A stretch of 64,000 nt of DNA from Minisyncoccia bacterium (GCA_049294435.1 JBAQCU010000020.1:13110-77109), one strand, 5' to 3'; positions 4,780-63,872 are shown, counted from the first letter of the stretch. Notes: generated by a model from the sequence alone, not told the origin. Numbers and translations are program-made.

Positions 4780-6021
4780 ATGAACAAGCTAATAACAAAA
4801 CTCCCTGACAAACCTGGTGTTTACATATTTCGCGGACCAAAGCGCGAGGTTTTTTATGTTGGAAAGGCGACATCGCTCAAAAGTCGCGTCGCTAGCTATT
4901 TTCGTAAAGACCTAATCGCGACTCGTGGGCCTATTCTAGTTGGGATGGTGGAGTCTGCGAAATCTGTGGATTTTATAGAAACAGATTCTGCCCTTGAGGC
5001 ACTAATTTCAGAAGCGCATCTCATCAAAAAACATCAACCAGTTTATAACACAAAGGAAAAAGATAACAAGAGTTTCAACTACGTGGTTATTACTAAAGAA
5101 GATTTTCCGCGCGTTATTACAATGCGTGGTCGCAACTTGGAAACCCGACATCCAAGTGAAATGCGTGGTCGCAACTTGGAAACCCGACATCCAAGTGAAA
5201 TAAAATATTATTTTGGGCCATTTCCACAAGGAAGCGTCTTGCGCGAAGCGCTAAATATCGTTCGGAAGATTTTTCCGTTTCGCGATAGGTGTAAGCCAGA
5301 GCCAAGTAAGCCGTGCTTCAACGCGCAAATAGGCCTTTGTCCAGGAGTGTGCGCTGGTACAGTATCAAAAGCAGAGTACGCGAAAACAATCCGTCGCATT
5401 AAACTTTTTTTTGAGGGTCACAAAAAAACACTTATCAGTGGGCTTAAACGCGATATGAAGCTATCTGCAAAAAATTTGAAGTTTGAGGAAGCGGGTCATA
5501 TTAAAAAAATGATTTTTGCGCTCAACCACATTCAAGACGTAGCTCTCCTAAAAGCAGAACTTACGAGGTCCGACCTCGTAAGGGATTTTCGCATTGAGGC
5601 TTATGATGTCGCGCATATCTCAGGAACAAATGTTGTTGGTGTAATGGTAGTAATTGAAGACGGCGAACCAAAGAAAAGTGACTACCGAAAATTCAAAATC
5701 AAAAACAGCGCCAATAACGACAATGCATCTTTGCTTGAGATGCTTGAGCGTCGTTTTAACCACCCCGAATGGTCAATGCCAAAACTCATTGTGGTAGATG
5801 GCGGTAAGGCTCAAGTAAACACTGCAGAGCGTGCGCTTAAAGAGTGGGGGATTCAAATCCCTGTAGTAGGTGTTGTAAAAGACGAGCACCATAAGCCAAA
5901 AATGTTGCTAGGTGACAAGACAGCCATCAAAGAACACGATAGGCAGATTCTTCTCGCCAACAACGAAGCCCATCGTTTCGCAGTGAGCTTCCATAGGCAA
6001 CTGAGGAGGAAATCTATTTAA
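4780..6021 (+). CDS. uvrC: Excinuclease ABC subunit C, short form: GIY-YIG, Cys-rich, UVR and RNase H-like endonuclease domains; no C-terminal HhH domain
   Basis: N-terminal GIY-YIG (GVYIFRG..FYVGKA). UVR-like segment (KFEEAGHIKKMIFAL). Endonuclease region (YDVAHISGTNVVG). Only 413 aa. Confidence 0.8.
   Translation: MNKLITKLPDKPGVYIFRGPKREVFYVGKATSLKSRVASYFRKDLIATRGPILVGMVESAKSVDFIETDSALEALISEAHLIKKHQPVYNTKEKDNKSFNYVVITKEDFPRVITMRGRNLETRHPSEMRGRNLETRHPSEIKYYFGPFPQGSVLREALNIVRKIFPFRDRCKPEPSKPCFNAQIGLCPGVCAGTVSKAEYAKTIRRIKLFFEGHKKTLISGLKRDMKLSAKNLKFEEAGHIKKMIFALNHIQDVALLKAELTRSDLVRDFRIEAYDVAHISGTNVVGVMVVIEDGEPKKSDYRKFKIKNSANNDNASLLEMLERRFNHPEWSMPKLIVVDGGKAQVNTAERALKEWGIQIPVVGVVKDEHHKPKMLLGDKTAIKEHDRQILLANNEAHRFAVSFHRQLRRKSI
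5122..5199 (+). repeat. Perfect 39 bp tandem duplication (2 x atgcgtggtcgcaacttggaaacccgacatccaagtgaa) in frame within uvrC; encodes MRGRNLETRHPSE twice
   Basis: Copies at 5122-5160 and 5161-5199 are identical and adjacent. Confidence 0.9.
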
Positions 6022-31037: not shown

Positions 31038-32165
31038 TTAACCTTGGTGACGCATTAAAATTGCTACAATCTGTTCGGCGATTTGCTCGGCAGCATCTGT
31101 GCGCGCAAACGCCCTCGCAGACTTTTTCATCAACGCGCGCTTGTTGTTGTCATTCATTAAATTCTCAATCTCTGACATCAAAATATTCGGTCCCATATTT
31201 GACTCTTCTATAACCACGGCACCACCTGCGCGCGCGTAAGCAAACGCATTCTTCCTCTGATGATCGCCAACGTGATTTGCAATGGGAATAAGAATAGATG
31301 GAATCTCCCACGCTGCAATTTCAAAAATTGCAGACCCTGCTCGCGACACGATAATAGTCGCCTCCTCCGCGGCTAGTTTCATTGTTTGATTATCAAGATA
31401 CCCATAAATATGGTAGCGTGACGCATTTGCATTACCGCTCAAAAGTCCGCTTACCGTAGTTTTTACGTCTTCCATGTTTGCCTCTCCTGTCTGGTGGATA
31501 ACTTGATATTTTTCCACAAGACGAGGTGAGAGAGTTTCCATTTGACTATTGATAACGCGCGCGCCTTGAGAGCCGCCAAGAACAAGGAGTGTTGGAATAC
31601 CTTGCTCAAGATCAAGCTCTTTTAGAGCATTCTTTCCCGAAGGGCGCAGAATTTCCTCGCGAATCGGGTTACCTGTGAGAGCCGTGCGACCCTCTGGAAA
31701 AAATTGCGCCGCTTCAGCGTATGAGATGGCGATTTTTTGCGCAAACTTACCAGCCCATGTATTTACGCGACCTGGCGCGCTGTCAGATTCATGAATAATA
31801 ACAGGAATGCGAAATAGTTTCGCAGCAACCAAAGTTGGGAAACTTGCAAAACCTCCTTTACTAAATACAACATCAGGATATAACACAAACATTTGAAAAA
31901 TTGACTTTAGTACCCCCCAACCAGTTTTAAAGAAATCAAAAAAATTTTGTAAGGAAAAGTATGTTCGTCTCTTCCCTGCTGTTACGGCCTTAAATTTGAT
32001 TTTGTTGTCAAAAAGCATCCGCTCATTGTATGGCTCGGTAGACAAATAGAACATCAGAACATTCGCGATTTTTTCGCGTACAAGGAGTTGGTGCAGTTTT
32101 TGTGCTACAGCAATAATCGGATAAAAGTGACCGCCTGTTCCCCCACCGGTAAATACGATTTTCAT
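31038..32165 (-). CDS. murG: UDP-GlcNAc--lipid I N-acetylglucosaminyltransferase MurG
   Basis: FTGGGTGGHFYP G-loop; GT28 fold. Confidence 0.9.
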   Translation of the reverse strand: MKIVFTGGGTGGHFYPIIAVAQKLHQLLVREKIANVLMFYLSTEPYNERMLFDNKIKFKAVTAGKRRTYFSLQNFFDFFKTGWGVLKSIFQMFVLYPDVVFSKGGFASFPTLVAAKLFRIPVIIHESDSAPGRVNTWAGKFAQKIAISYAEAAQFFPEGRTALTGNPIREEILRPSGKNALKELDLEQGIPTLLVLGGSQGARVINSQMETLSPRLVEKYQVIHQTGEANMEDVKTTVSGLLSGNANASRYHIYGYLDNQTMKLAAEEATIIVSRAGSAIFEIAAWEIPSILIPIANHVGDHQRKNAFAYARAGGAVVIEESNMGPNILMSEIENLMNDNNKRALMKKSARAFARTDAAEQIAEQIVAILMRHQG

Positions 32166-32453
32166 GTTAGTTTTTCATAGTGAGAGAAGCGAGCTTAGTA
32201 AAACTACACCTGGTTAAATGCGATTTTGCAAATCGCGATTTCAAATTCTCTGTTAAACAGCCTGAGAATTTTTTATTATAGTTATGTGATTTTTTCATAA
32301 TAATGTTAATTGTGTTTTTAATTTGAAATCATTTAACTGGGTAAGGAAATTATATAACTTGATACAACATATTCTGCGTTCGCTCGGAAATGCAAACTCC
32401 GTGTTTGTATTTCGCTCGCTCTCTCGCTCTCTTGAATATAGTCGCTTCACTCC
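32166..32453 (-). promoter_or_regulatory. Family 1 structured leader/repeat, copy A (core 32211-32339), filling the ftsW-murG spacer
   Basis: Shares GGTTAAATGCGATTTTGCAAATCGCGATTTCAAATTCTCTGTT at one end and AATTTGAAATCATTTAACTGGG at the other with copies at 63087-63294 and 63655-63872. Strand is given as the sense of the downstream gene. Confidence 0.6.
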
Positions 32454-33551
32454 TTAATTTCTCTTAGAAATATTTAGGAGAATTCCTACCTCAAGGAAAG
32501 CAAATAGTATCGCGGAACCGCCGTGGCTAACAAACACAAGTGGTACGCCAGTAAGCGGTATTAGCCCGAGCATAGCAGCGATATTCGCAAATGACTGCGA
32601 TACTATCAGTATAACAATTCCTACAGCCAAAAGCGACTCAAAAATATTTGGGGTACGTCTCGCAATTTGTATGCCACGAACACCGAACAAAAGAAACAAA
32701 ATTATGATAATCAACCCGCCAATAAACCCAAATTCTTCTCCTACCACCGCAAAAATAGAGTCGCCTGTTGGTTCAGGGAGAGAACCGAATTTTTGTAGAC
32801 TTTGCCCGAAACCACGGCCTGTAATTCCACCTGAACCGATTGCGAGGAGAGATTTTTGAATCTGATAACTCGACCCCTGCGGGTCGTGCGAAGGGTCAAG
32901 GTATGTGAGAATACGCTCGCCAACATATGGACGAGCAAGAGCTAGAGCGCCGACCGCAAGAACACTAATACCTATAATAAGCAAAAAATGACGAATCTTC
33001 ATTCCTGCAGCAAGAAGCATTGCAATCACAGCGGCAAAAAGAACGGCCAATGTGCCGGTGTCTGGCTCTGCAAGCAACACTATAGCAGGGAGAAGCAATA
33101 TTCCGCCAGTGACAGTCAAGGCTGTTTTTAAAGTTTGGATGCGCTCCCTGAGAATTGGCAAAAGTGCGGCGAAATAGATAACAGTACCAAGTTTGAGAAG
33201 CTCGGACGGTTGAAATGTAATGAACCTCAAATCAATCCACCTATGCGCTCCACCGTGTTCCAATCCGACACCAGGCACAAAAACAAAAAGTGTAACGATT
33301 ACGGAACCAATAAAAATATAAAGTGCATTTGTTTGTAGTAATTTTAAATTGACCTTAAACGCAAAAAAAACGGCAATAATAATTCCAAGAAGAAGCCCTA
33401 AAATAACTTGATCAAACAAAAGATCCTTCAAAGAAAATCCCTTTCGCGCAAAAAGCCCAAACGAGGCAGAAGTGAAAACAAAAAGCCCTACTAGTGCAAG
33501 AAGAGCGGTAATTCCAAGAAATATTTTATCTATTGATTGGATTTTTTTCAT
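32454..33551 (-). CDS. ftsW: SEDS-family peptidoglycan glycosyltransferase FtsW/RodA
   Basis: About 10 TM helices and conserved SEDS loops (GSGGITGRGFGQS). Confidence 0.85.
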   Translation of the reverse strand: MKKIQSIDKIFLGITALLALVGLFVFTSASFGLFARKGFSLKDLLFDQVILGLLLGIIIAVFFAFKVNLKLLQTNALYIFIGSVIVTLFVFVPGVGLEHGGAHRWIDLRFITFQPSELLKLGTVIYFAALLPILRERIQTLKTALTVTGGILLLPAIVLLAEPDTGTLAVLFAAVIAMLLAAGMKIRHFLLIIGISVLAVGALALARPYVGERILTYLDPSHDPQGSSYQIQKSLLAIGSGGITGRGFGQSLQKFGSLPEPTGDSIFAVVGEEFGFIGGLIIIILFLLFGVRGIQIARRTPNIFESLLAVGIVILIVSQSFANIAAMLGLIPLTGVPLVFVSHGGSAILFAFLEVGILLNISKRN

Positions 33552-49417: not shown

Positions 49418-49511
49418 TTTGTTGCTCCTTATAGAGAATCAAAAAGATCATTACTTTCATTGTTCCTTTGAAAACATACATCAAAACACGTTGAAAGTCA
49501 ATGTGAAAATC

Positions 49512-49677
49512 CGTAACCCCTCACACCTACTTCTCAAAAATACAAAAAACAACGAGATTGTCGTCTTTGCGAGCGGGAGCGAAGCAATCCAGGAGCTAAT
49601 CGTTAAACGCTGGATTTCTTCGCAAAGCTCGCAAAGACAAGGATTTTGGGCTAGTGTAGCAGGGGTGTGAGGGGTTA
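49512..49677. repeat. Family 2 nested-palindrome element, copy a: inverted ends GTAACCCCTCACACC / GGTGTGAGGGGTTAC, flanked by the 8 bp direct repeat GAAAATCC (49504-49511 and 49678-49685)
   Basis: Terminal inverted repeat and flanking direct repeat read from the sequence. Inner stems: TCTTTGCGAGC / GCTCGCAAAGA, and GCGAAGCAATCCAG / CTGGATTTCTTCGC. Confidence 0.55.
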
Positions 49678-55314: not shown

Positions 55315-55620
55315 TTATACGGATAAGGCACTAAAATCAACCGTGTCACCGTCAAAAAGAATTGAATGGTCTCTAGGCGGGATGCCGTTGATTGAAAACC
55401 CAATTAAACCTGGCGGATATTTTTCTTCAATCTCCGGGCACTCCATAAAAACATTCATCAGTAAGTACAAAAAAGATGCCCCTTCGCTAATTATTACTGA
55501 GTGCCCCTCATTCCCCGTAATCTTCTGTAGCTCTTTATCGAAGCGGACATTGACACTCATTGCCCTTGGCATACCGTGCATCTCTGATTTTTCATTTGTA
55601 ATCTTTTTCATACATTTCAT
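55315..55620 (-). CDS. Ubiquitin-fold (MoaD/ThiS / Ub-Mut7C-like beta-grasp) small protein, without a C-terminal GG
   Basis: Core MSVNVRFDKEL..GASFLYLL..INGIPPRDHSILFDGDTVDF matches the beta-grasp sulfur-carrier pattern. Begins MKCMKK, as RhuM does. Confidence 0.45.
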   Translation of the reverse strand: MKCMKKITNEKSEMHGMPRAMSVNVRFDKELQKITGNEGHSVIISEGASFLYLLMNVFMECPEIEEKYPPGLIGFSINGIPPRDHSILFDGDTVDFSALSV

Positions 55621-55764
55621 TCTACCCTAAAACATTTTGTGCTCAAAATGTTCGGGCAACCCGTAACTAGCGGGTTTAACCCTAAACTGTCTTCGGCGGT
55701 CGGGCGACACTGCGAAGCAGGGTTTAGCCACAGACCGCACCTCACCAAAATTTTGATCCTCATC
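55621..55764 (-). promoter_or_regulatory. Family 3 leader, copy 1: shares ~90 bp plus the first four codons (ATGAAATGTATG) with the RhuM leader; hairpin AACATTTTG-tgctc-CAAAATGTT (55631-55653) overlaps the AGGG ribosome-binding site; contains a 47 bp internal duplication
   Basis: Aligned directly against 56770-56880. Confidence 0.55.
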
Positions 55765-56784
55765 TCAATGCCCCTTTTCTTTTGTTCCCTTAACTTTTAA
55801 AAGTTTTTTCACCTCCTTGTCAAAGTCTGAAACATAATTTCTGTCTCTCACCTGCCTGTACTTTTCGTATTCCCTAAAAGCCAACGTTTCCGCATCCTTT
55901 GCGCTCACCGTACCCGCAGTATGCAATAGTTTCTTTTCAGAGATTGTCAGAAATTCATCGAGCTTTATAATCCAATCTTGCATTTTCATGAGTCGCCCAC
56001 TAGAAGCCTGCAAATCTGCAAAATCGATGTACAAAGAAACAATCAAGTTGAGCTGACTTATTTCTGACTCAGATAAATAATTTTTTGCAATAGGAATGTC
56101 TCCTGCGGTAATGTAGTCGTTTTTAAAACTAGTTAATCCCATCAGTGGCTTTCTACTATCAGCACGCTTGGCAATTATTTCTGCGGCGGTAGAACCATGC
56201 ACTGCGTAGTGCATTTTATTTTGTACCATGGCAAAAAACTTTTGAGTTTGCTCCGTGTCTACTTTGTAATCGATGCTAGTTGCGTATATATCAGTGACTT
56301 TCTGATAAAACATACGCTCACTACTGCGAATATCTCTAATTCTCTGTAAAAGTTCTTGGAAATATCTTGCACGGCCATCACCCTGCTTTAATCGTTCATC
56401 ATCCATAGTAAATCCCTTAATCAGGTATTCACGCAACCTCTCCGTTGCCCATATGCGAAATTGAGTCCCCTTATCAGACCGCACTCGATACCCAACGGCC
56501 AAAATAGCATCAAGATTATAATGCTTTGTATCATACTCCTTACCATCTGTAGCAGTTATCCGGAAATTCCGGATAACTGAATTTTCATTTAATTCCAGTT
56601 CTAAAAATATATTTTTTAGATGCTCATTAGCCGTACGTACATCAATAACAAAAAGTTCTGCAATTAATTTTTGCGTTAGCCACACATTTTCATCCTCAAT
56701 TCTAACACGAATTTTTTGATCGTCGCCAAGAATTTGATAGATTGCTATTTGTATTTTTTCTGTTTCCTTCTTCATACATTTCAT
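55765..56784 (-). CDS. RhuM-family virulence/Fic-associated protein
   Basis: ENVWLTQKLIAELFVIDVRTANEHLKNIF and GYRVRSDKGTQFRIWATERLREYLIKGF match conserved RhuM-family blocks. Confidence 0.7.
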   Translation of the reverse strand: MKCMKKETEKIQIAIYQILGDDQKIRVRIEDENVWLTQKLIAELFVIDVRTANEHLKNIFLELELNENSVIRNFRITATDGKEYDTKHYNLDAILAVGYRVRSDKGTQFRIWATERLREYLIKGFTMDDERLKQGDGRARYFQELLQRIRDIRSSERMFYQKVTDIYATSIDYKVDTEQTQKFFAMVQNKMHYAVHGSTAAEIIAKRADSRKPLMGLTSFKNDYITAGDIPIAKNYLSESEISQLNLIVSLYIDFADLQASSGRLMKMQDWIIKLDEFLTISEKKLLHTAGTVSAKDAETLAFREYEKYRQVRDRNYVSDFDKEVKKLLKVKGTKEKGH

Positions 56785-56880
56785 TCTACCCTAAAACATT
56801 TTGTGCTCAAAATGTTCGGGCGACCCGCAACTAGCGGGTTTAGCCACAGGCCTCCTCTCATCAAGATTTTAATCTTCATT
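56785..56880 (-). promoter_or_regulatory. Family 3 leader, copy 2 (upstream of RhuM): hairpins CCCGC-tagtt-GCGGG and AACATTTTG-tgctc-CAAAATGTT (56795-56817) immediately before the ribosome-binding site and ATG
   Basis: Aligned directly against 55606-55745. Confidence 0.55.
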
Positions 56881-56952
56881 TTTGTAATTCCATTTTTAGA
56901 ATTTTAGAAACGAGTGGCTGACCCCCATTTTTCCCATTTTTGACCCCCTTTT

Positions 56953-57624
56953 TCAATCGGAAATGTCCGCTTGTTCCTTAAATATTATTTTCTTTCTGTA
57001 TGCCTTACAATAATTAATTGTAGAACAAATTTCCTTGAAAAGTAATTTTGATTCGTTTTCCTCATAATCATACTCCTCCTCAGACTTACCTTGGAATTTA
57101 TAGTGCAAAAAACTGCTCCTTTTTTCAGAAACCTTCTTAATTAAATTAAAATGTTTTCTGTTAAATTTAGGTAACTTCATAACATCAATTAACCAAGTAA
57201 ACTTACCCTCAAAAGAAACATATTTTAATAATTCCTTAAGCGTACTATTAGGAACATCATTTCTAATAGTCCATATTTGAATAATTTCGTTAATGAAGTG
57301 CTCAAAATACGTTGCCAGAAAAACGTATGCAAGGTTAAAATCATCTTCCTTAACAGATTGTTCAAAACTACTCAAAAGGGTATCTTGATGAATAATTACA
57401 AAATGAGAATGTTTACTTTTTGCACGTTGCCTAACCCATTTTCTGATTTTCTCATCTACCAATTTTTTATTAGAAAGATCAGCGACAACAAGAACTCCAC
57501 AAATTATTGCTGACTCAACAAGTTGAGGAAAAATTTCTTTCAACAATTGGTGACCTTCACTATCTACTGCCATTCCCTCTTTATTAGTTTGCTCCTTTAT
57601 CATAGTGCTATAAAATTTCATCAA
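56953..57624 (-). CDS. Hypothetical protein (223 aa), possibly HEPN-like (R-x4-H: EKRSSFLHY); last gene of the restriction-modification operon
   Basis: Overlaps the 3' end of the RM gene by 17 nt. The Rx4-6H motif alone is weak evidence. Confidence 0.4.
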   Translation of the reverse strand: MMKFYSTMIKEQTNKEGMAVDSEGHQLLKEIFPQLVESAIICGVLVVADLSNKKLVDEKIRKWVRQRAKSKHSHFVIIHQDTLLSSFEQSVKEDDFNLAYVFLATYFEHFINEIIQIWTIRNDVPNSTLKELLKYVSFEGKFTWLIDVMKLPKFNRKHFNLIKKVSEKRSSFLHYKFQGKSEEEYDYEENESKLLFKEICSTINYCKAYRKKIIFKEQADISD

Positions 57625-60600
57625 TCTCCCTCATTACATTATCTGTCTCCGTAAGTACCACAATAATCTTTTGATAGTGTTCGATGTCAGCGTTGGTGAG
57701 CGTGCGGGTTTTGCGGTCTTTCAGCCATTTTTGAGCGGGTTGGTATCCACCGATGTAGAAATTCCATGCGACTTCGGGAACATTGCCAAAATACTGGGTA
57801 TCGTTTATGTAGACATTTCCATTTTCATATTTTATTTTTTCCACAGTGTCACTCCCCGCTACAGGGTATGAAGTAATAAGATTGTTGCATTCGGATGCGG
57901 TCATCAAGTGTAGTTCACGGAGCTTAGTACCAAGAGGCACCAGCTTCCAAAATTCTTCCTTATTTTTTGGATATGGTACGCGTGGAAAATCTGTTTTTAA
58001 AAACTCGCTATATTTAGTGCGGTAGCTTGGTGAATATAGGTATGCATAAATATAGTCCAAAATATTTTCAGGAGTAATCCTAATATCACCGTCTTTTGTA
58101 TTATATTCAGCTACAGGATAATACACACTACCGACAGCTTCAGCAATTTTTCTTGAAATTACTAGATCGATGTTTGGAATTCTTGAAACTCTAATATTTC
58201 CCACCTCGCCAGCATGAAAACTACTGCCAACTTCTGGATAAAGATAGAGTGGAAATGATGCCCCGATTTCAGAAGTTTTATTTGAAACATAACTTGATTC
58301 AACGATATTGTCATGGACTAGAACATGTTGAAACCCCTCAATCTTCTGCTGCCTGCACAACATAAGTCCAATATTTTCCTTATTTATCAAATGTTGCATG
58401 ACGTCCCACCGTCCGCGTTCTACAAACTTCTTATCATAATAAATATATCTTGTATCAAATGGTCTATAATTTATCTTACAAACTTTGCCTTCTTCATAGT
58501 CAAAACTTTGATTATTTGCATAAGCAATAATATTTTTCTTGAGCAATTCCTTATCTTCCGAGATAACGATAGCATCTCGCCCTGTTACTATTCCTACGCT
58601 GGAGGTAGTAAATAATTCACTAACAGAAAAACCTTCACTGTATGCGCCCTTATTTTCTCCTTCCAGCTTCCAAACATCACATTCATCTGGCAGTTTCACC
58701 CACATCACTGTTTCTACACTGGCGATATCGAGCATCTGAAACTTGGCATCTCGTGTGCCATACATATCACTAACATGCACAGTCGCGAGCTTTTTATCTC
58801 TAATATTTAGGAACTTTTTAACTGCCAAAATTATAGACACACCTGACATGATATCAAAAACATTTTCATCTTTTGTTCCGTCTGGACTTATTTCCTTTTT
58901 ACGACTATTGCCGTGTAAGTCAACTACATAAATTTTATCGAATGTGTTTCTCAGATGCCAACGCATTCCGCGGAATGTTGGGTTGTCTATATAGCCATGT
59001 GCAGTAATCATCCCAACAATTCCCTCTCCGTTTTTCTCGATGAGACTCTCGGCAAAACGAATAAACTTAACGTAGTCGTCGTTAATCCATTTACTATTTC
59101 GCTCTTTTAATTTTTCTTTGCCCCCAATTTCAACCTTGTAAACATCATTGTCGGTGTAGTGAGGGTTCATTGATTCACCGCTGTACGGCGGATTCCCAAT
59201 CACACACATAATCGGATACTCGGACTTCACACGCGATGCATTTTTGCTTTCCTCGGCAATACTGTCCATAATTCCGAAAAGTGTATCCTGGGTTGAGTAG
59301 TCAATTGGTGCATCAAGGGTGTTGGTGAGATACACACCGAGGCGGGTATTGATATTATCTGCACCGGTATCGTGAAGTGTCATGCCGAGTTTCAAGTGCG
59401 CGATGGTGTACGAAGCCATCATGAGCTCAAAACCATGCAGGCGTGGCAGGAGGTCGTTTTCTACATACGCAGGCCATCTCCCCTCTTGTCCTTTGAAATT
59501 TTCATGAATATGATTAATTACCTCATTGAGAAAAGTACCTGTCCCTGTGGCGACATCGAGTACCTGCACCTTGTGATATTCTTTTTGAACTTTTACCTCC
59601 TTACTTTTGTTGTTGATTTCTTTTTTCTCAATGATAACCTTGGTTGTATCGGTAAGACCTTTTTCAAGACCAAATTCACTTTTTAGCAGACTGTCGACTG
59701 CTCGCACAATAAACTGCACTACTGGTCGCGGTGTATAGAAAACACCCATTTCCATTTTTTTCTTTGAGTCGTACTCCTTCAAAAAATCTTCGTAGAAGTG
59801 AATGACTGGATCCTTGTCGTCTTTTTCTTTTTGATAGAAATCACGCAGTATTTTTTCTACATCGGCGTGAGTAAAAACTTCACAAAGCTCGTCGACAATA
59901 AATCTCAATTTATCAGGAAAGGATGTACCTGCAATGTGGTCAAAAAATGAGCGTAGAAACGGATTAGTTTTAGGAACAAGCTCGCGCGCTTCGGTACGAG
60001 AAAAATCTTCGGGAGTTGTGTCGTTATAACGTGCTGCAAAAAGCCCATACACGAGAGTTTGTGCATACATATCGGCAAAAGATTCATCGTCAAGACCAGA
60101 AACAAGGTGCTCGCGAACCACATTACGCATTTTGAGCAAGTCAGCATATTTGTGCGAAGGATTCGCAAGCATTTCTCGCACATTGCCTCGAATACGCTGA
60201 GCCTTGCCGCCCATAATCTGAGCAAGATGTTTCCCGCGTTTAATAGGCTCCTTGTGAGACGAAGAAAAGTCTACAAGGGTTTTTGGAAGAAGTGAAAAAT
60301 TTTTAGGGAATGCAGTTATTGTGCGATTGGTTTTGTCGAAACTTGCAATAGCAACAGGCTCGCCGTATCTCTCACCATTGCGATAGAAACGAAATTCAAC
60401 GTAGTCAGTAAGCACAAGATTATCATAACCAAAGTAACGCTCCATTTGGTTACTTTTTTCTATTTTGTCGAGGCTGATGCCTATATCTTTTGCTTCAATG
60501 TAGAGAATGGGTACTCCATTTTTCGAAATAACAAAATCGGGCTTATTCCCATCATCATTTGTTGAATCGTGGTTGATTTGTGTTACCTTGCCATCAGCCT

Positions 60601-60727
60601 GAAAAATTTGTTTCAAGAGCAACTCAAAGTCAGTACGATAAATCATCTCTCTTCCGTTTGAAGCATCCAGACGGGCAAATTTTTGTGCGATATTCTTTAA
60701 ATATTCTTCCATAGTAATTATTGACAC
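57608..60727 (-). CDS. Type IIG/IIL restriction-modification enzyme, MmeI-like: N-terminal PD-ExK nuclease, gamma-class N6-adenine methyltransferase, C-terminal target-recognition domain
   Basis: N-terminus DFVISKNGVPILYIEAKD (D..EAK). MTase motif I VLDVATGTGTFL and motif IV IGNPPYSG. 1039 aa in a single chain. Confidence 0.8.
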   Translation of the reverse strand: MSIITMEEYLKNIAQKFARLDASNGREMIYRTDFELLLKQIFQADGKVTQINHDSTNDDGNKPDFVISKNGVPILYIEAKDIGISLDKIEKSNQMERYFGYDNLVLTDYVEFRFYRNGERYGEPVAIASFDKTNRTITAFPKNFSLLPKTLVDFSSSHKEPIKRGKHLAQIMGGKAQRIRGNVREMLANPSHKYADLLKMRNVVREHLVSGLDDESFADMYAQTLVYGLFAARYNDTTPEDFSRTEARELVPKTNPFLRSFFDHIAGTSFPDKLRFIVDELCEVFTHADVEKILRDFYQKEKDDKDPVIHFYEDFLKEYDSKKKMEMGVFYTPRPVVQFIVRAVDSLLKSEFGLEKGLTDTTKVIIEKKEINNKSKEVKVQKEYHKVQVLDVATGTGTFLNEVINHIHENFKGQEGRWPAYVENDLLPRLHGFELMMASYTIAHLKLGMTLHDTGADNINTRLGVYLTNTLDAPIDYSTQDTLFGIMDSIAEESKNASRVKSEYPIMCVIGNPPYSGESMNPHYTDNDVYKVEIGGKEKLKERNSKWINDDYVKFIRFAESLIEKNGEGIVGMITAHGYIDNPTFRGMRWHLRNTFDKIYVVDLHGNSRKKEISPDGTKDENVFDIMSGVSIILAVKKFLNIRDKKLATVHVSDMYGTRDAKFQMLDIASVETVMWVKLPDECDVWKLEGENKGAYSEGFSVSELFTTSSVGIVTGRDAIVISEDKELLKKNIIAYANNQSFDYEEGKVCKINYRPFDTRYIYYDKKFVERGRWDVMQHLINKENIGLMLCRQQKIEGFQHVLVHDNIVESSYVSNKTSEIGASFPLYLYPEVGSSFHAGEVGNIRVSRIPNIDLVISRKIAEAVGSVYYPVAEYNTKDGDIRITPENILDYIYAYLYSPSYRTKYSEFLKTDFPRVPYPKNKEEFWKLVPLGTKLRELHLMTASECNNLITSYPVAGSDTVEKIKYENGNVYINDTQYFGNVPEVAWNFYIGGYQPAQKWLKDRKTRTLTNADIEHYQKIIVVLTETDNVMREIDEIL

Positions 60728-60734
60728 TATAAAT

Positions 60735-61802
60735 TTAAATCCTCACATACCTCGTACCGCGTCCGCGACCGATACGCCTTATTTTCTTGAGTTCAAGGAG
60801 CCTTTCGACTGATTGTCGAACTGTGCTGAGTGCAATGCCTGTTTTTCCTACTATTTCAGCAACACCCGTTTCGTCTACGCTTGAGATGTACTTCCATACC
60901 GCAAACTGTTTTGGGGAAAGCGTATCTTCAATGTGTTCTTCTTTAAGAAATATGAGTGCTTTTGTTGCCTGTTCTTTGACAACACCGAGAAAGAAGTTGA
61001 GCCATGGAGCAATCGTGTCGTGTTCTGTTCCAAATGTCTCTTGTGATTTTATAAGTGCGACATAGTATTCGTCTTTGCGTCGTTCGACGATTTGCTCATG
61101 AGAAACATACTGCACAAACTGGTATTCAGATCGGAGTAAAAGCAAGTTAGTCATAACGCGCGAAAGACGCCCGTTGCCGTCTTCGAATGGGTGAATTTTT
61201 AAAAATTCAACAAGGAAGTTGGCGATTACAAGCAAAGGATGGAACCGTCGGTCTATAAGTGCGTCGTATGTCCAGTCGACAAGCTCGGTCATTTCTCTAG
61301 GAGCGCGCCATGCTGGAGTTGTTTCAAAAATTACTTTTGCTATAGATTTTCCATCAGGCGCAAGTATGCCGACGGTGTTTTCAATTTTTTTGTACTTGCC
61401 TTTGTGGAGTTTATCTTTGTCAGAATATTTGAGAAGCTCGTTGTGTAGCGAGCCAATCACCCCTTCACGGAGTGGAAGCGTCTGATAACTATCAAAGACA
61501 TTTTGAAGCACTTCAAGGTAGCCCTGCACTTCTTGATAGTCGCGCTCGGCAAGCTTCGATGCCGTGAGTCCCTGCATGACTTTCTCCACTTCTTCGTCGG
61601 AGAGTTTTGACCCCTCAATACGGGTCGATGCACCAGCAGAGGTAACAAGCACCGAGCGTTTGAGGCTGGTAATTGCTTGTGGAGTCATCCGTAGCCCACC
61701 TTTGAACTCCCCTCTCATGCCGTCAATTTCAGCAACAAGAGATAGTATATGAGGCGCGGGCGCTTGAAGCCTGTGATCAAATTTTGTCTTATTTTCGTCC
61801 AT
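60735..61802 (-). CDS. Fic-family protein, class II (N-terminal inhibitory helix with S-x3-E-G) and a C-terminal winged HTH
   Basis: Fic motif HPFEDGNGRLSR; inhibitory motif ASTRIEGS; C-terminal LSTVRQSVERLLELKKIRRIGRGRGTRYV. Its stop lies 7 nt before the RM start. Confidence 0.85.
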   Translation of the reverse strand: MDENKTKFDHRLQAPAPHILSLVAEIDGMRGEFKGGLRMTPQAITSLKRSVLVTSAGASTRIEGSKLSDEEVEKVMQGLTASKLAERDYQEVQGYLEVLQNVFDSYQTLPLREGVIGSLHNELLKYSDKDKLHKGKYKKIENTVGILAPDGKSIAKVIFETTPAWRAPREMTELVDWTYDALIDRRFHPLLVIANFLVEFLKIHPFEDGNGRLSRVMTNLLLLRSEYQFVQYVSHEQIVERRKDEYYVALIKSQETFGTEHDTIAPWLNFFLGVVKEQATKALIFLKEEHIEDTLSPKQFAVWKYISSVDETGVAEIVGKTGIALSTVRQSVERLLELKKIRRIGRGRGTRYVRI

Positions 61803-61873
61803 AATTTACCGCTATACTGTATATAGTTGATTATAGCGGATTATGGCGGGAGAAGTCAATAACAATTTTTGTA

Positions 61874-62000
61874 ACCCCTCACACCTATAGAAAAATTCTA
61901 GAAGACCAGAGTCATTGCGAGTAGATAGCGTCCAAGACGTGAACTTGCTAGTTCAGAAACAATCCATGAGTCCTGGATTGCCACGTCGGAGTACCGACTC
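61874..62000. repeat. Family 2 element, copy c (partial or rearranged): left end GTAACCCCTCACACC is identical to copy a; inner core (TCATTGCGAG..CTGGATTGCCACGTCGG..GACTCGCAAAGACGG) is homologous to copy b; no matching right terminal repeat
   Basis: Read from sequence. Confidence 0.45.
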
Positions 62001-62741: not shown

Positions 62742-63086
62742 TTATTCAGTAATTTTTAAATTCTTCATTCGCACTTTATGCAAACGGTTGCGGGGAATCA
62801 TGCGTGAAATTGCGCGGAGGAAAACTTCAGCGTAACCCTTTTTCTCGATGGTGTACCCAACGGTACGCTCACGAAGTCCGCCTGGGTAGCCAGAGTATGT
62901 CTTTGAGTGCACCTCTCCCATCTTTGATGGAGCGATGGTTGCCTTTGAGGCATTTAGAACAATCACTTCTACTGGAGCTACGAGGTGCTTCTGGAATGCG
63001 ACCGAGTTTTTACCCATAAGAACGCTGGCTGCCTCTGTGGCAACACGTCCTACGGATTTTCCTTTTGCGTCAATTTTGTATGTCAT
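62742..63086 (-). CDS. rplM: 50S ribosomal protein L13
   Basis: MTYKIDAKGKSVGRVATEAA.. The ORF track's MEIFKIS.. extension comes from the upstream repeat; the real start is the ATG at 63086. Confidence 0.85.
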   Translation of the reverse strand: MTYKIDAKGKSVGRVATEAASVLMGKNSVAFQKHLVAPVEVIVLNASKATIAPSKMGEVHSKTYSGYPGGLRERTVGYTIEKKGYAEVFLRAISRMIPRNRLHKVRMKNLKITE

Positions 63087-63294
63087 GGTAGATCTTCTTA
63101 GCGAGCAAAGCGAGATTTTGAAAATCTCCACCCGGTTAAATGCGATTTTGTAAATCGCGATTTCAAATTCTCTGTTGAATAATCAGCAGAGGATTTATTA
63201 TCATTACGTGATGCTAACATAAAGTGTGTCATATTACTAATTTGAAATCATTTAACTGGGTTTGAAAATTATAGTCGCTTCCCTCCTTAATTTT
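63087..63294 (-). promoter_or_regulatory. Family 1 structured leader/repeat, copy B (core 63134-63259) between rplQ and rplM
   Basis: Contains, in gene sense: a TATAAT box right after the rplQ stop; the long-range inverted repeat CCCAGTTAAATGATTTCAAATT ... AATTTGAAATC[GCGATTTACAAAATCGC]ATTTAACCGGG; and the palindrome GAGATTTTCAAAATCTC before the ATG. Confidence 0.6.
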
Positions 63295-63654
63295 CTAAAC
63301 GAACTCAATAACCGCCATTTTAGAAGCATCTCCGCCACGACGTGGTAGCTTCACAATACGTGTATAGCCACCGGCGCGCTCTTTGTAGCGAGGCGCAATT
63401 TCATCAATAAGCTTCTTTGCACCTTCCTCTCCAGAGACACCGCCAAGTCGTGAAATAATAAGACGACGTGAAGCAAGGTCTGCTTTGCCACCACGTGTAA
63501 CCAATTTCTCCACGAATGGTCGGAGTTCTTTGGCACGAGCTTCTGTAGTCTCTATATGCTCAGTTTTAATAAGAGAAAGCGCAAGAGAACGTAGAAGCGC
63601 AATGCGTCCTGCGTGATCTCGTCCGAATTTTCGAATTGACTTGTGGTGTTTCAT
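63295..63654 (-). CDS. rplQ: 50S ribosomal protein L17
   Basis: MKHHKSIRKFGRDHAGRIALLRSLA.. is canonical L17. Start at 63654; the ORF-track extension to 63699 is repeat-derived. Confidence 0.9.
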   Translation of the reverse strand: MKHHKSIRKFGRDHAGRIALLRSLALSLIKTEHIETTEARAKELRPFVEKLVTRGGKADLASRRLIISRLGGVSGEEGAKKLIDEIAPRYKERAGGYTRIVKLPRRGGDASKMAVIEFV

Positions 63655-63872
63655 GGTTGATTTTCTTAGCGAGTGAAACGAGATTTTGAAAATCTCCACC
63701 CGGTTAAATGCGATTTTGTAAATCGCGATTTCAAATTCTCTGTTGCATAATTTACGGGGAATTTATAATCGTTGTGTGATACTAGCATAAAGTGTGTCAT
63801 ATTGCCAATTTGAAATCATTTAACTGGGTTCTCAAAAAATACATTAGCTATACTCATTATTTTTTGGAATAA
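63655..63872 (-). promoter_or_regulatory. Family 1 structured leader/repeat, copy C (core 63702-63827) between rpoA and rplQ
   Basis: About 90% identical to copy B over the conserved arms; the central ~65 bp is homologous but more diverged. Confidence 0.6.

What the first reader, a model, noticed from the sequence alone, without database searches (positions are those of the whole stretch)
32166..32453. Extended Family 1 copy within the division/cell-wall cluster (ftsW-murG spacer)
The 288 bp ftsW-murG spacer consists entirely of the Family 1 element, with an extra ~85 nt insert. In gene sense the insert reads caagagagcgagagagcgagcgaaatacaaacacggagtttgcatttccgagcgaacgcagaatatgttgtatcaagttatataatttcctta, including CGAGAGAG direct repeats. 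It lies between the conserved TATATT box and the first arm. dcw clusters are normally tightly packed, so a structured element here suggests separate control of murG, or a repeat insertion with regulatory consequences.
Basis: seen in the sequence. Interest (0 to 1): 0.55.

Follow-up and report, generated by a model that had tools for sequence, protein, structure and literature searches.

The report
Mobile leader cassette inserted before murG
The long gap between the cell-wall genes ftsW and murG is a recent insertion of a small repeated DNA element, found so far in a few related uncultured groundwater-type bacteria (Paceibacterota), that always sits directly in front of a gene's start codon and probably controls how that gene is translated.

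Summary
The spacer 32166-32453 (288 nt, genes on the minus strand) is filled by one copy of a repeat. Two more copies lie in the window, before rplM (63087-63294) and rplQ (63655-63872). The extra, copy-specific segment is 80 nt (32357-32436), not about 85-94.

Five related genomes with the same gene order have ftsW and murG 1 nt apart or overlapping, so the spacer is an insertion. An independent assembly of the same reads reproduces it. The rplQ, rplM and dnaK sites are also filled in some relatives and empty in others.

The element occupies five different sites. It is always in gene sense and always ends at the ATG. It has invariant 22-nt inverted arms that form a three-way junction. An A-U-rich helix with compensatory changes pairs the segment after the junction with about -10 to +1 of the downstream start. 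The long copies also keep a 34-43 codon upstream ORF that reads through that segment and stops 1-25 nt before the gene.

Same-site (presumed orthologous) copies are 81-100% identical outside a 48-nt stretch, while four-fold sites are about 50% identical. Rfam, Pfam, phage and plasmid searches gave no match.

Best reading: a mobile, MITE-like leader cassette that re-creates translational coupling for murG. The function is inferred, not shown.

The parts
32166..32453 (-). Whole ftsW-murG spacer, which is the inserted DNA: one copy of the repeat plus a copy-specific segment.
   Evidence: Absent from 5 syntenic relatives. Matches covariance model R1 at 189 bits. Reproduced by an independent assembly.
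32437..32453 (-). 5' box GGAGTGAAGCGACTATA, directly after the ftsW stop codon (32454-32456).
   Evidence: Homologous to GGAGGGAAGCGACTATA in the rplM copy and to GAGCGAAGCGAC in the L016 dnaK copy.
32357..32436 (-). Copy-specific 80-nt segment. It contains GAGAGCGA x2 and its own imperfect hairpin, GAAATACAAAC / GTTTGCATTTC.
   Evidence: Has no other copy anywhere in the held data, and is not a significant duplication of the 5' box. In the minimum-free-energy fold its 5' part pairs with the tail GCUCGCUUCUCUC.
32342..32356 (-). TATATAATTTCCTTA: a -10-like box plus linker, present in the other copies as TATAATTTTCAAA.
   Evidence: Alignments. Promoter activity was not tested.
32320..32341 (-). 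5' arm CCCAGTTAAATGATTTCAAATT.
   Evidence: Identical in 7 of 8 distinct copies.
32248..32319 (-). Centre of the element (72 nt), variable between copies. The upstream ORF starts here.
   Evidence: The centre is 69-72 nt in long copies and 6 nt in the minimal L016 copy.
32167..32298 (-). Upstream ORF of 43 codons plus TAA. The ATG is at 32296-32298 and the stop at 32167-32169, 1 nt before the murG ATG.
   Evidence: The same frame is open in all 6 long copies. The ATG is always 51 nt 5' of the 3' arm. Stops by frame are 0/10/15.
32209..32247 (-). 3' arm, the reverse complement of the 5' arm, with the embedded hairpin GCGATTT-GCA-AAATCGC (32220-32236). This copy has a G-to-A change that weakens P1.
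32200..32208 (-). Segment X (UGUAGUUUU), immediately 3' of the junction.
   Evidence: Pairs with Y; compensatory differences between tail types.
32165..32174 (-). Segment Y (AAAACUAACA), covering -9 to +1 of the murG start and pairing with X.
63087..63294 (-). Second copy, filling the rplQ-rplM spacer (208 nt).
   Evidence: 221 bits with R1. Copies at the same site occur in L002, L014 and L022. The site is empty in L016 and L023-L025.
63655..63872 (-). Third copy, filling the rpoA-rplQ spacer (218 nt).
   Evidence: 223 bits with R1. This spacer is 22-25 nt in L002, L004, L010-L023.

Best explanation
The spacer is a lineage-specific insertion of a small non-autonomous repeat, 130-200 nt long and without a transposase gene. 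The repeat behaves like a portable 5' leader cassette. It lands, or survives, only between co-directional genes, in gene sense, with its 3' end fused to the next gene's ATG.

Inferred mechanism, assuming the element is transcribed with the operon:
1. The invariant 22-nt arms fold into a long stem with a side hairpin, giving a three-way junction.
2. The U-rich segment X, just after the junction, pairs with the A-rich segment Y that runs into the start codon. This would mask the only ribosome entry site in a genome that lacks Shine-Dalgarno sequences.
3. In long copies, an upstream ORF starts in the open centre loop, reads through the 3' arm and X, and stops 1-25 nt before the gene. Ribosomes translating it would melt X:Y and hand over to the gene by termination-reinitiation.

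At murG the upstream ORF ends in TAA-C-ATG, which is exactly the stop-start geometry that ftsW-murG has in genomes without the insertion. The insertion would thus replace direct ftsW-murG coupling by coupling to the cassette's own ORF.

What is shown: the insertion, the repeat family, orientation and position, sequence conservation, complementarity, and maintenance of the ORF. What is inferred: transcription, folding in vivo, translation of the upstream ORF, and any regulatory effect.

The confidence of 0.5 refers to the full mechanism. That the spacer is an inserted copy of a dispersed repeat is about 0.95.
For: Insertion:
- The ftsW-murG site is empty in L005-L009.
- rpoA-rplQ is empty in many relatives.
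- rplQ-rplM is empty in L016 and L023-L025, although RplM is identical or more than 90% identical.
- The dnaK site is filled only in L016.

Position: five distinct sites (murG, rplQ, rplM, rbfA, dnaK) are all in gene sense and all abut the ATG.

Selection: copies at the rplM site in three genomes are 81-100% identical in the flank, arms, P3 hairpin and tail. The 48-nt variable stretch is 48-62% identical and four-fold codon sites are 47-54%.

Structure:
- 95.7% of cells pair in P1/P2/P3, against at most 58% when the partner is slid.
- Fold z-scores are -2.4 to -5.3.
- X:Y pairs in 94.9% of cells against at most 58% when slid. Two pairs show compensatory change, and 2 of 500 shuffles reach the observed value.
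- Cognate X:Y duplexes are -5.3 to -12.3 kcal/mol against -1.6 to -3.4 for shuffles.

Upstream ORF:
- The ATG is invariant, there is no indel in the 48 variable nt, and stops by frame are 0/10/15.
- The product of the shuffle probabilities is 3e-4, which assumes the six copies are independent, and they are related.

The genome has essentially no Shine-Dalgarno sequences.
Against: - No expression data exist.
- The arms hardly vary, so there is only one compensatory pair in 29. Sequence-level conservation could equally reflect a DNA-binding or RNA-binding protein.
- The minimal L016 copy has no upstream ORF, so the ORF is not essential to the element.
- Codon-position identities (0.58/0.50/0.63) show no protein-like pattern.
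- The murG copy is the most degenerate. It has an extra mismatch in P1, the weakest X:Y (-5.3 kcal/mol, shuffle p = 0.10), and carries an unexplained 80-nt segment.
- Only 8 distinct sequences from 5 sites were available.
- Gene strand and replication strand cannot be separated, so the orientation rule might be a replication-strand rule.
Confidence: 0.5

Rival explanations
1. Selfish or neutral MITE-like insertion. The element is simply tolerated between genes. Its arms are kept because a transposase or recombinase needs them, and the murG copy does nothing useful and is decaying.
For: - Presence or absence is patchy among very close relatives.
- The arms are long, near-perfect inverted repeats.
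- The murG copy is the most diverged and is interrupted by an 80-nt segment.
- The insertion is flanked by an imperfect direct repeat, CTAAGAGAAATTAA / CTATGAAAAACTAA (11 of 14).
Against: - Same-site copies keep flank, arms and tail at 81-100% while neutral sites sit near 50%, which mobility alone does not explain.
- The inverted repeats are internal, not terminal. About 34 nt on the 5' side and 44 nt on the 3' side are also conserved outside them.
- The orientation is the same as the gene at 5 of 5 sites.
- No transposase with matching ends is present in the window or any locus.
Confidence: 0.25
2. Mobile promoter. The cassette's main effect is to give murG (and rplQ, rplM, dnaK, rbfA) its own transcription start from the TATAAT box 7-9 nt before the 5' arm.
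For: - A -10-like hexamer sits at the same place in every copy (TATAAT, TATATT, TAGATT).
- The promoter scan reports TAGAAA-18-TATAAT (10 of 12) in the rplM copy.
- The 5' flank is 94% conserved between window and L022.
- Homologous upstream regions in front of unrelated genes is the definition of the 'putative mobile promoters' of PMC3488235.
Against: - The scan reports no promoter on the gene strand in the murG spacer, and site counts do not exceed shuffles.
- -35 elements are poor, and TATA-like hexamers are common in 30% GC DNA.
- A promoter does not explain the arms, X:Y or the open frame.
- This reading is not exclusive of the main model.
Confidence: 0.25
3. RNA processing or stability element. 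The 22-bp perfect stem is an RNase III site or a protective hairpin that splits the operon mRNA and sets the half-life of the downstream part, as described for Correia and ERIC elements.
For: - A 21-22 bp uninterrupted or near-perfect duplex is predicted in all copies.
- Correia elements bind RNase III and are cleaved or protected by it (abstract of PMC2649163).
Against: - Structure alone would tolerate compensatory changes, yet the arms are almost invariant in sequence.
- It does not explain why the element must touch the ATG.
- No cleavage data exist.
Confidence: 0.2
4. The open frame encodes a functional small basic protein (34-43 aa), and the repeat is a multi-copy small gene.
For: The frame is kept open, the start codon is invariant, and there are no indels.
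Against: - The third codon position is the most conserved one.
- The C-terminal half is fixed at the nucleotide level by the arm.
- The C-terminus differs by a frameshift in the murG copy and is truncated in L001.
- The ORF is absent from the L016 copy.
- No homologue exists among 5.8 billion predicted proteins, and there is no Pfam or NCBIfam hit.
Confidence: 0.07
5. DNA-level site. The invariant arms are paired binding sites for a sequence-specific protein, such as a regulator, a nucleoid protein or a recombinase.
For: There is extreme sequence conservation rather than structural conservation across copies and genomes.
Against: - One compensatory G-C to A-U change in L022 keeps pairing.
- The spacing between the arms varies from 6 to 72 nt.
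- A DNA site gives no reason for strict gene-sense orientation or for the X:Y helix.
Confidence: 0.1

Closest known systems
Bacterial MITEs and transcribed palindromic repeats (Correia/CREE of Neisseria, ERIC, RUP, BOX; reviews PMC10969869, PMC2229807; CREE PMC2649163)
   Same: Small, with no transposase gene and with long inverted repeats. Several copies per genome, and sites that are filled or empty between close relatives. Sits in transcribed intergenic regions, is predicted to form long RNA stems, and may carry a -10 box.
   Different: The inverted repeats are internal rather than terminal. No clear target-site duplication and no partner transposase were found. Orientation is always that of the downstream gene. 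The 3' end is always fused to a start codon and base-pairs with it. Copies at the same site are under purifying selection.
Putative mobile promoters (Promoter propagation in prokaryotes, PMC3488235)
   Same: Highly similar upstream sequence in front of non-homologous genes (murG, rplQ, rplM, dnaK, rbfA) within and between genomes.
   Different: What is copied here is a complete roughly 200-nt leader down to the ATG. Its conserved parts lie mostly downstream of the candidate -10 box, so the conserved payload looks post-transcriptional rather than promoter-like.
Translational coupling through an upstream ORF that unfolds a sequestered start (own knowledge: infC-rpmI-rplT operon; leader-peptide systems; an intergenic small ORF promoting translation, PMC8092293)
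   Same: The start region is buried in a helix. A short ORF reads through one strand of that helix and stops next to the main start codon.
   Different: Those leaders are fixed features of one operon. This one is a dispersed cassette found before unrelated genes. It lacks a Shine-Dalgarno sequence, and translation of its ORF is untested.
FourU-type and ROSE-type RNA thermometers (own knowledge)
   Same: A run of U pairs with the ribosome entry site in a weak A-U-rich helix. One copy precedes dnaK.
   Different: The pairing partner is an A-rich leader plus the AUG rather than a Shine-Dalgarno sequence. Other copies precede rplM, rplQ, murG and rbfA. No melting data exist.

Membership tests
MITE | Short (about 50-500 bp), no transposase gene, multiple copies. 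| tested here: met
   Copies are 132-288 nt, with 3 in 64 kb. The only internal ORF is 34-43 codons and has no family match.
MITE | Inverted repeats at the termini of the mobile unit. | tested here: not met
   The 22-nt arms are internal. The inserted DNA at murG extends 112 nt 5' (32 nt without the extra segment) and 43 nt 3' of the arms. These flanks are conserved between copies.
MITE | Target-site duplication flanking the insertion. | tested here: inconclusive
   At murG there is an imperfect 14-nt direct repeat (11 of 14). The right-hand repeat is also present in the L016 dnaK copy, so it belongs to the element. The native junction motif matches only the three element tails in the window.
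MITE | A parent insertion sequence or transposase with matching ends. | tested here: not met
   No further arm-like sequence occurs in the window or in 26 loci. The full genome was not available.
REP/REPIN with RAYT | Short palindromes that flank, and are mobilised by, a Y1 (RAYT) transposase gene. | tested here: not met
   The Y1_Tnp gene in L010-L013 is flanked by a different repeat, GGAATGGGGACAGCCAC, which is unrelated to this element.
Integron attC site | Core order RYYYAAC ... GTTRRRY on the top strand. | tested here: not met
   The arms contain GTTAAAT and ATTTAAC, but in the reverse order (GTTRRRY first) on both strands (read).
Putative mobile promoter | Homologous upstream sequence before non-homologous genes. 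| tested here: met
Putative mobile promoter | Promoter activity. | not testable with these tools
   Only a -10-like box is present, and the promoter scans do not exceed shuffles.
Any Rfam family (including L13_leader and other r-protein leaders) | Score at or above the family's gathering threshold. | tested here: not met
   There were 0 hits at gathering thresholds over the window. Only chance-level hits (E > 1) occurred on the three copies. The element also precedes genes that are not ribosomal-protein genes, and it is absent from the rplM site in close relatives.
Upstream-ORF translational coupling leader | Conserved start, frame kept open, and stop close to the main start. | tested here: met
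   All three hold in all 6 long copies, with a stop-to-ATG distance of 1, 11, 11, 11, 11 and 25 nt. The ORF is absent in the minimal copy.
Upstream-ORF translational coupling leader | Main start sequestered by a helix that the upstream ORF traverses. | tested here: met
   The X:Y helix is found in all 8 sequences, with 2 compensatory pairs. This rests on prediction only.
Upstream-ORF translational coupling leader | The upstream ORF is translated and the downstream gene depends on it. | not testable with these tools
   No ribosome profiling or reporter data are available.
RNA thermometer | Temperature-dependent melting of a helix that masks the start. | not testable with these tools
   The helix is A-U rich and weak (-5 to -12 kcal/mol).

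The most novel reading that the evidence does not exclude
The element is a mobile RNA switch. It would be a translational control module, made of an invariant three-way junction as sensor or protein-binding platform plus a start-masking helix, that spreads by insertion in front of start codons. In genome-reduced Paceibacterota that lack Shine-Dalgarno sequences, this would wire unrelated essential genes (ribosomal proteins, MurG, DnaK, RbfA) into one post-transcriptional regulon that responds to a shared signal such as temperature, growth rate or a trans-acting factor.
Probability: 0.2. Interest if true: 0.8.

Novelty: new variant of a known kind. Interest (0 to 1): 0.55.

Why it matters
Candidate Phyla Radiation bacteria have tiny genomes, few known regulators and, in this genome, no Shine-Dalgarno sequences. 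How they set expression levels inside tightly packed operons is largely unknown.

A dispersed cassette that carries its own start-masking helix and coupling ORF, and that is kept under selection where it lands, would show that regulation can be moved between operons as a ready-made RNA module. It would also give a concrete, testable handle on translation initiation in these organisms.

On the practical side, the element breaks short-read assemblies. It also causes gene callers to add a false 15-residue N-terminal extension (MEIFKIS...) to L13 in public databases.

Tried and rejected
- Rfam at gathering and at permissive thresholds gave nothing. There are no tRNA or tmRNA genes.
- The peptide of the upstream ORF has no homologue and no family.
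- Phage and plasmid collections and viral contigs gave no match.
- Exact-core scans of species-representative genomes and JGI metagenomes found only 2 and 1 loci.
- Integron attC was rejected because the core order is reversed.
- A RAYT/REP relationship was rejected because the nearby Y1 transposase has its own, different repeat.
- A conserved rplM (L13) leader was rejected. The site is empty in genomes whose L13 is identical or more than 90% identical, and the element also precedes murG, dnaK and rbfA.
- The 80-nt segment as a tandem duplication of the 5' box is not significant (score 17 against a null of 16 +/- 3). An outer helix between the 5' box and the tail is not consistent across copies.
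- Covariation in the arms amounts to only one compensatory pair (64 of 500 shuffles reach it), so the arm helices rest on complementarity alone.

Full report
WHAT IS THERE. All genes around the finding lie on the minus strand. By Pfam, ftsW is 32454-33551 and murG is 31038-32165. They sit in the order scpB, D-Ala-D-Ala carboxypeptidase, mraY-like, ftsW, murG, gltX, M23 peptidase. The spacer is exactly 32166-32453, 288 nt. The window is 41.9% GC and comes from an NCBI MAG named 'Minisyncoccia bacterium', on a contig of 125,310 nt. Its closest named relatives are Candidatus Yonathbacteria and Paceibacterota.

THE REPEAT. A repeat search and two core patterns find three copies in the window, all on the minus strand. 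They lie before murG, before rplM (63087-63294) and before rplQ (63655-63872). Each core occurs 3 times against 0 expected. A covariance model built from five copies finds these three and no others in the window.

In gene sense each copy reads, in order:
- a 5' box (GGAGnGAAGCGAC);
- a TATAAT-like hexamer;
- a 22-nt 5' arm, CCCAGTTAAATGATTTCAAATT;
- a variable centre;
- a 39-nt 3' arm, which is the reverse complement of the 5' arm with a 17-nt hairpin (GCGATTT-RCA-AAATCGC) inserted;
- a 43-45 nt tail that runs up to the ATG of the next gene.

Two details need changing. The copy-specific extra segment is 80 nt (32357-32436). The 80-nt segment has no second copy in the window or in any fetched locus, and it is not a significant duplication of the 5' box.

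IT IS AN INSERTION. Five genomes whose MurG is 79-85% identical, with the same gene order, have ftsW and murG separated by one base (TAA-C-ATG) or overlapping (TCATGA). The alignment places the whole 287-288 nt between AAATTAA and CATG.

The other sites behave the same way:
- rpoA-rplQ is 22-25 nt in every relative examined.
- rplQ-rplM is filled in L002, L004, L010-L015, L017-L022. It is only 35-39 nt in L016 and L023-L025, even though their L13 protein is identical or more than 90% identical.
- L016 instead carries a copy before dnaK, a site that is empty in the others.
- A Paceibacterota MAG has a copy between infB and rbfA.

That makes five distinct sites. All are in the sense of the flanking genes, and all have the element's last base next to the ATG.

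An independent assembly of the same read set gives two contigs that carry the ftsW side (including the 80-nt segment) and the murG side. They overlap by 25 nt inside the invariant 3' arm. The insertion is therefore real, and the break is what a genomic repeat produces.

CONSERVATION. The rplM-site copies of the window, L002 and L022 sit at the same site in genomes whose rplQ and rplM four-fold sites are only 47-54% identical. In these copies a 48-nt stretch of the centre is 48-62% identical, which is about neutral. The 5' flank, both arms, the first part of the centre, the side hairpin and the tail are 81-100% identical. If these copies descend from one insertion, which the neutral-looking 48-nt stretch suggests, most of the element is under purifying selection where it sits. 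The alternative is repeated replacement by a younger master copy, and this cannot be excluded with eight sequences.

STRUCTURE. Single-sequence folds give the same architecture for long and minimal copies. P1 and P2 form from the two arms (21-22 bp with one conserved A.C mismatch), P3 is the side hairpin, and a helix forms in the tail. The z-scores are -2.4, -5.3, -2.9 and -4.3.

On the 8-sequence alignment, 95.7% of cells in P1, P2 and P3 pair, against at most 58% when the partner is slid. The arms almost never vary, however, so there is only one compensatory change (G-C to A-U in L022). This is not significant on its own.

The tail is more informative. Segment X, directly after P1, reads GUGGAGAUUUUC in 'type A' tails and GUGUAGUUUU or GUGUAAGUUUUU in 'type B' tails. 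It pairs with segment Y, which reads GAAAAUCAACCAU or AAAACUAACA and covers about -10 to +1/+2 of the gene's start. Here 94.9% of cells pair (at most 58% when slid), two pairs show compensatory changes, and 2 of 500 shuffles reach the observed values. Cognate X:Y duplexes are -5.3 to -12.3 kcal/mol, against -1.6 to -3.4 for shuffled Y. The shuffle p is at most 0.01 in six of seven copies and 0.10 for the murG copy.

UPSTREAM ORF. In all six long copies an ATG lies exactly 51 nt 5' of the 3' arm. The frame it opens runs for 34-43 codons through the 3' arm and X, and stops 1 nt (murG), 11 nt (rplM, rplQ) or 25 nt (rbfA) before the gene's ATG.

The 48 variable nucleotides have no indel although they are only about 55% identical. 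They contain 0 stops in this frame, against 10 and 15 in the other two. The product of the per-copy shuffle probabilities is 3e-4, an optimistic figure because the copies are related.

Identity by codon position (0.58/0.50/0.63) is not protein-like. No predicted protein anywhere resembles the peptide. The minimal dnaK copy, whose arms are joined by 6 nt, has no such ORF. The most economical reading is that the act of translation matters in long copies, not the peptide.

In the murG copy a 1-nt deletion in the tail shifts the end of the ORF so that it stops in AAAAACTAA-C-ATG. This is the same stop-start geometry that ftsW-murG has in the uninterrupted genomes.

CONTEXT FOR THE MECHANISM. Window genes have almost no Shine-Dalgarno sequences. 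Their leaders are A/C-rich, so a U-rich strand that pairs with the A-rich stretch and the AUG would be an effective mask.

The model is as follows. The cassette is co-transcribed, and X:Y closes the start of the downstream gene. Ribosomes that begin at the upstream ORF in the open centre loop unwind the 3' arm and X, terminate on top of Y, and re-initiate at the gene. The invariant three-way junction might in addition bind a factor, and the weak A-U helix might respond to temperature. Both of these ideas are speculation.

A promoter role for the TATAAT box is possible but weakly supported. The scan reports TAGAAA-18-TATAAT in the rplM copy but nothing on the gene strand of the murG spacer, and counts do not exceed shuffles.

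HOW IT MOVES is unknown. The inverted repeats are internal, no transposase with matching ends was seen, and a nearby Y1 transposase in Yonathbacteria has its own unrelated repeat.

One unexplained observation bears on this. The native ftsW-murG junction of the relatives (CTAAGAAAAAYTAACATG) matches, at 3 mismatches or fewer, only three places in the 64-kb window, namely the tails of the three element copies (0.25 expected). The left ends of the murG and rplM copies also read AGA(A/G)AATTAA-GGAG. This could mean integration by short homology, a carried-along target duplication, or convergence on a good A-rich initiation region.

COMPARISON WITH KNOWN THINGS. There is no Rfam family and no phage, plasmid or viral-contig match.

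The element resembles bacterial MITEs and transcribed palindromic repeats such as Correia and ERIC in size, inverted repeats, copy polymorphism and predicted long RNA stems (PMC10969869, PMC2229807, PMC2649163). It also fits the operational definition of a 'putative mobile promoter' (PMC3488235). It fails two MITE criteria that were tested (terminal position of the repeats, a partner transposase), and target-site duplication is inconclusive.

It differs from all of these in three ways: it is locked in gene sense, it is fused to and pairs with the start codon, and it is conserved where it sits. I therefore rate it a new variant of a known kind.

VERDICT.
- The 'repeat insertion' reading is right.
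- 'Separate control of murG' is plausible only in the sense of altered translational coupling, and it is untested.
- The murG copy is the most degenerate member and carries an unexplained 80-nt segment, so its own functionality is the least certain part.

Noticed in passing
window 55590-55681 / 56754-56845 and 55720-55763 / 56836-56879: A second repeat family (82-89% identical). It is the duplicated upstream region plus the first codons (ATGAAATGT) of a RhuM-family gene (55765-56784) and of a 101-aa ORF (55315-55620). It looks like a partial duplication of the rhuM 5' end.
   Followed up: partly
window 5121-5198: An exact 39-nt tandem duplication (13 codons, in frame) inside a UvrC-like gene, 4780-6021.
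   Followed up: no
window 55315-61802: A small defence or mobile islet between the dnaK region and rpsI. It holds a Type ISP restriction-modification enzyme (57608-60727), a Fic-domain protein (60735-61802) and RhuM.
   Followed up: partly
window 49495-49529 and 61853-61887: A 35-nt repeat (80% identical) ending in GTAACCCCTCACACCTA. The second copy lies just upstream of the Fic gene.
   Followed up: no
whole window: Almost no Shine-Dalgarno sequences occur upstream of genes, and leaders are A/C-rich (for example AAAACAAAC-ATG). There is no tRNA gene in 64 kb.
   Followed up: partly
L010 16230-17130 (also L011-L013): A Y1_Tnp (RAYT-like) gene of 225 aa flanked by inverted copies of GGAATGGGGACAGCCAC. 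This is a separate REP-type family in Yonathbacteria. Single GGAATGGGGACAG motifs also lie upstream of dnaK in L014-L021.
   Followed up: partly
rplM in public protein sets (P0124, P0127, P0135): Some gene callers start L13 at a GTG inside the element. This gives a spurious 15-residue extension, MEIFKISLRSLRKST (129 aa instead of 114 aa).
   Followed up: yes
L016 4986-5405; L021 5331-5486: The rpsI-grpE spacer is a variable spot. It holds a HicA/HicB-like pair in L016, a ParE-like ORF in L021, and a 62-aa ORF in the others.
   Followed up: no
window 32163-32180, 63084-63101, 63652-63669 versus L005-L009 junctions: The tails of all three element copies resemble the native ftsW-murG junction of genomes that lack the insertion (CTAAGAAAAAYTAACATG). 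These are the only matches in the window at 3 mismatches or fewer (0.25 expected). The origin of the resemblance is unexplained.
   Followed up: partly
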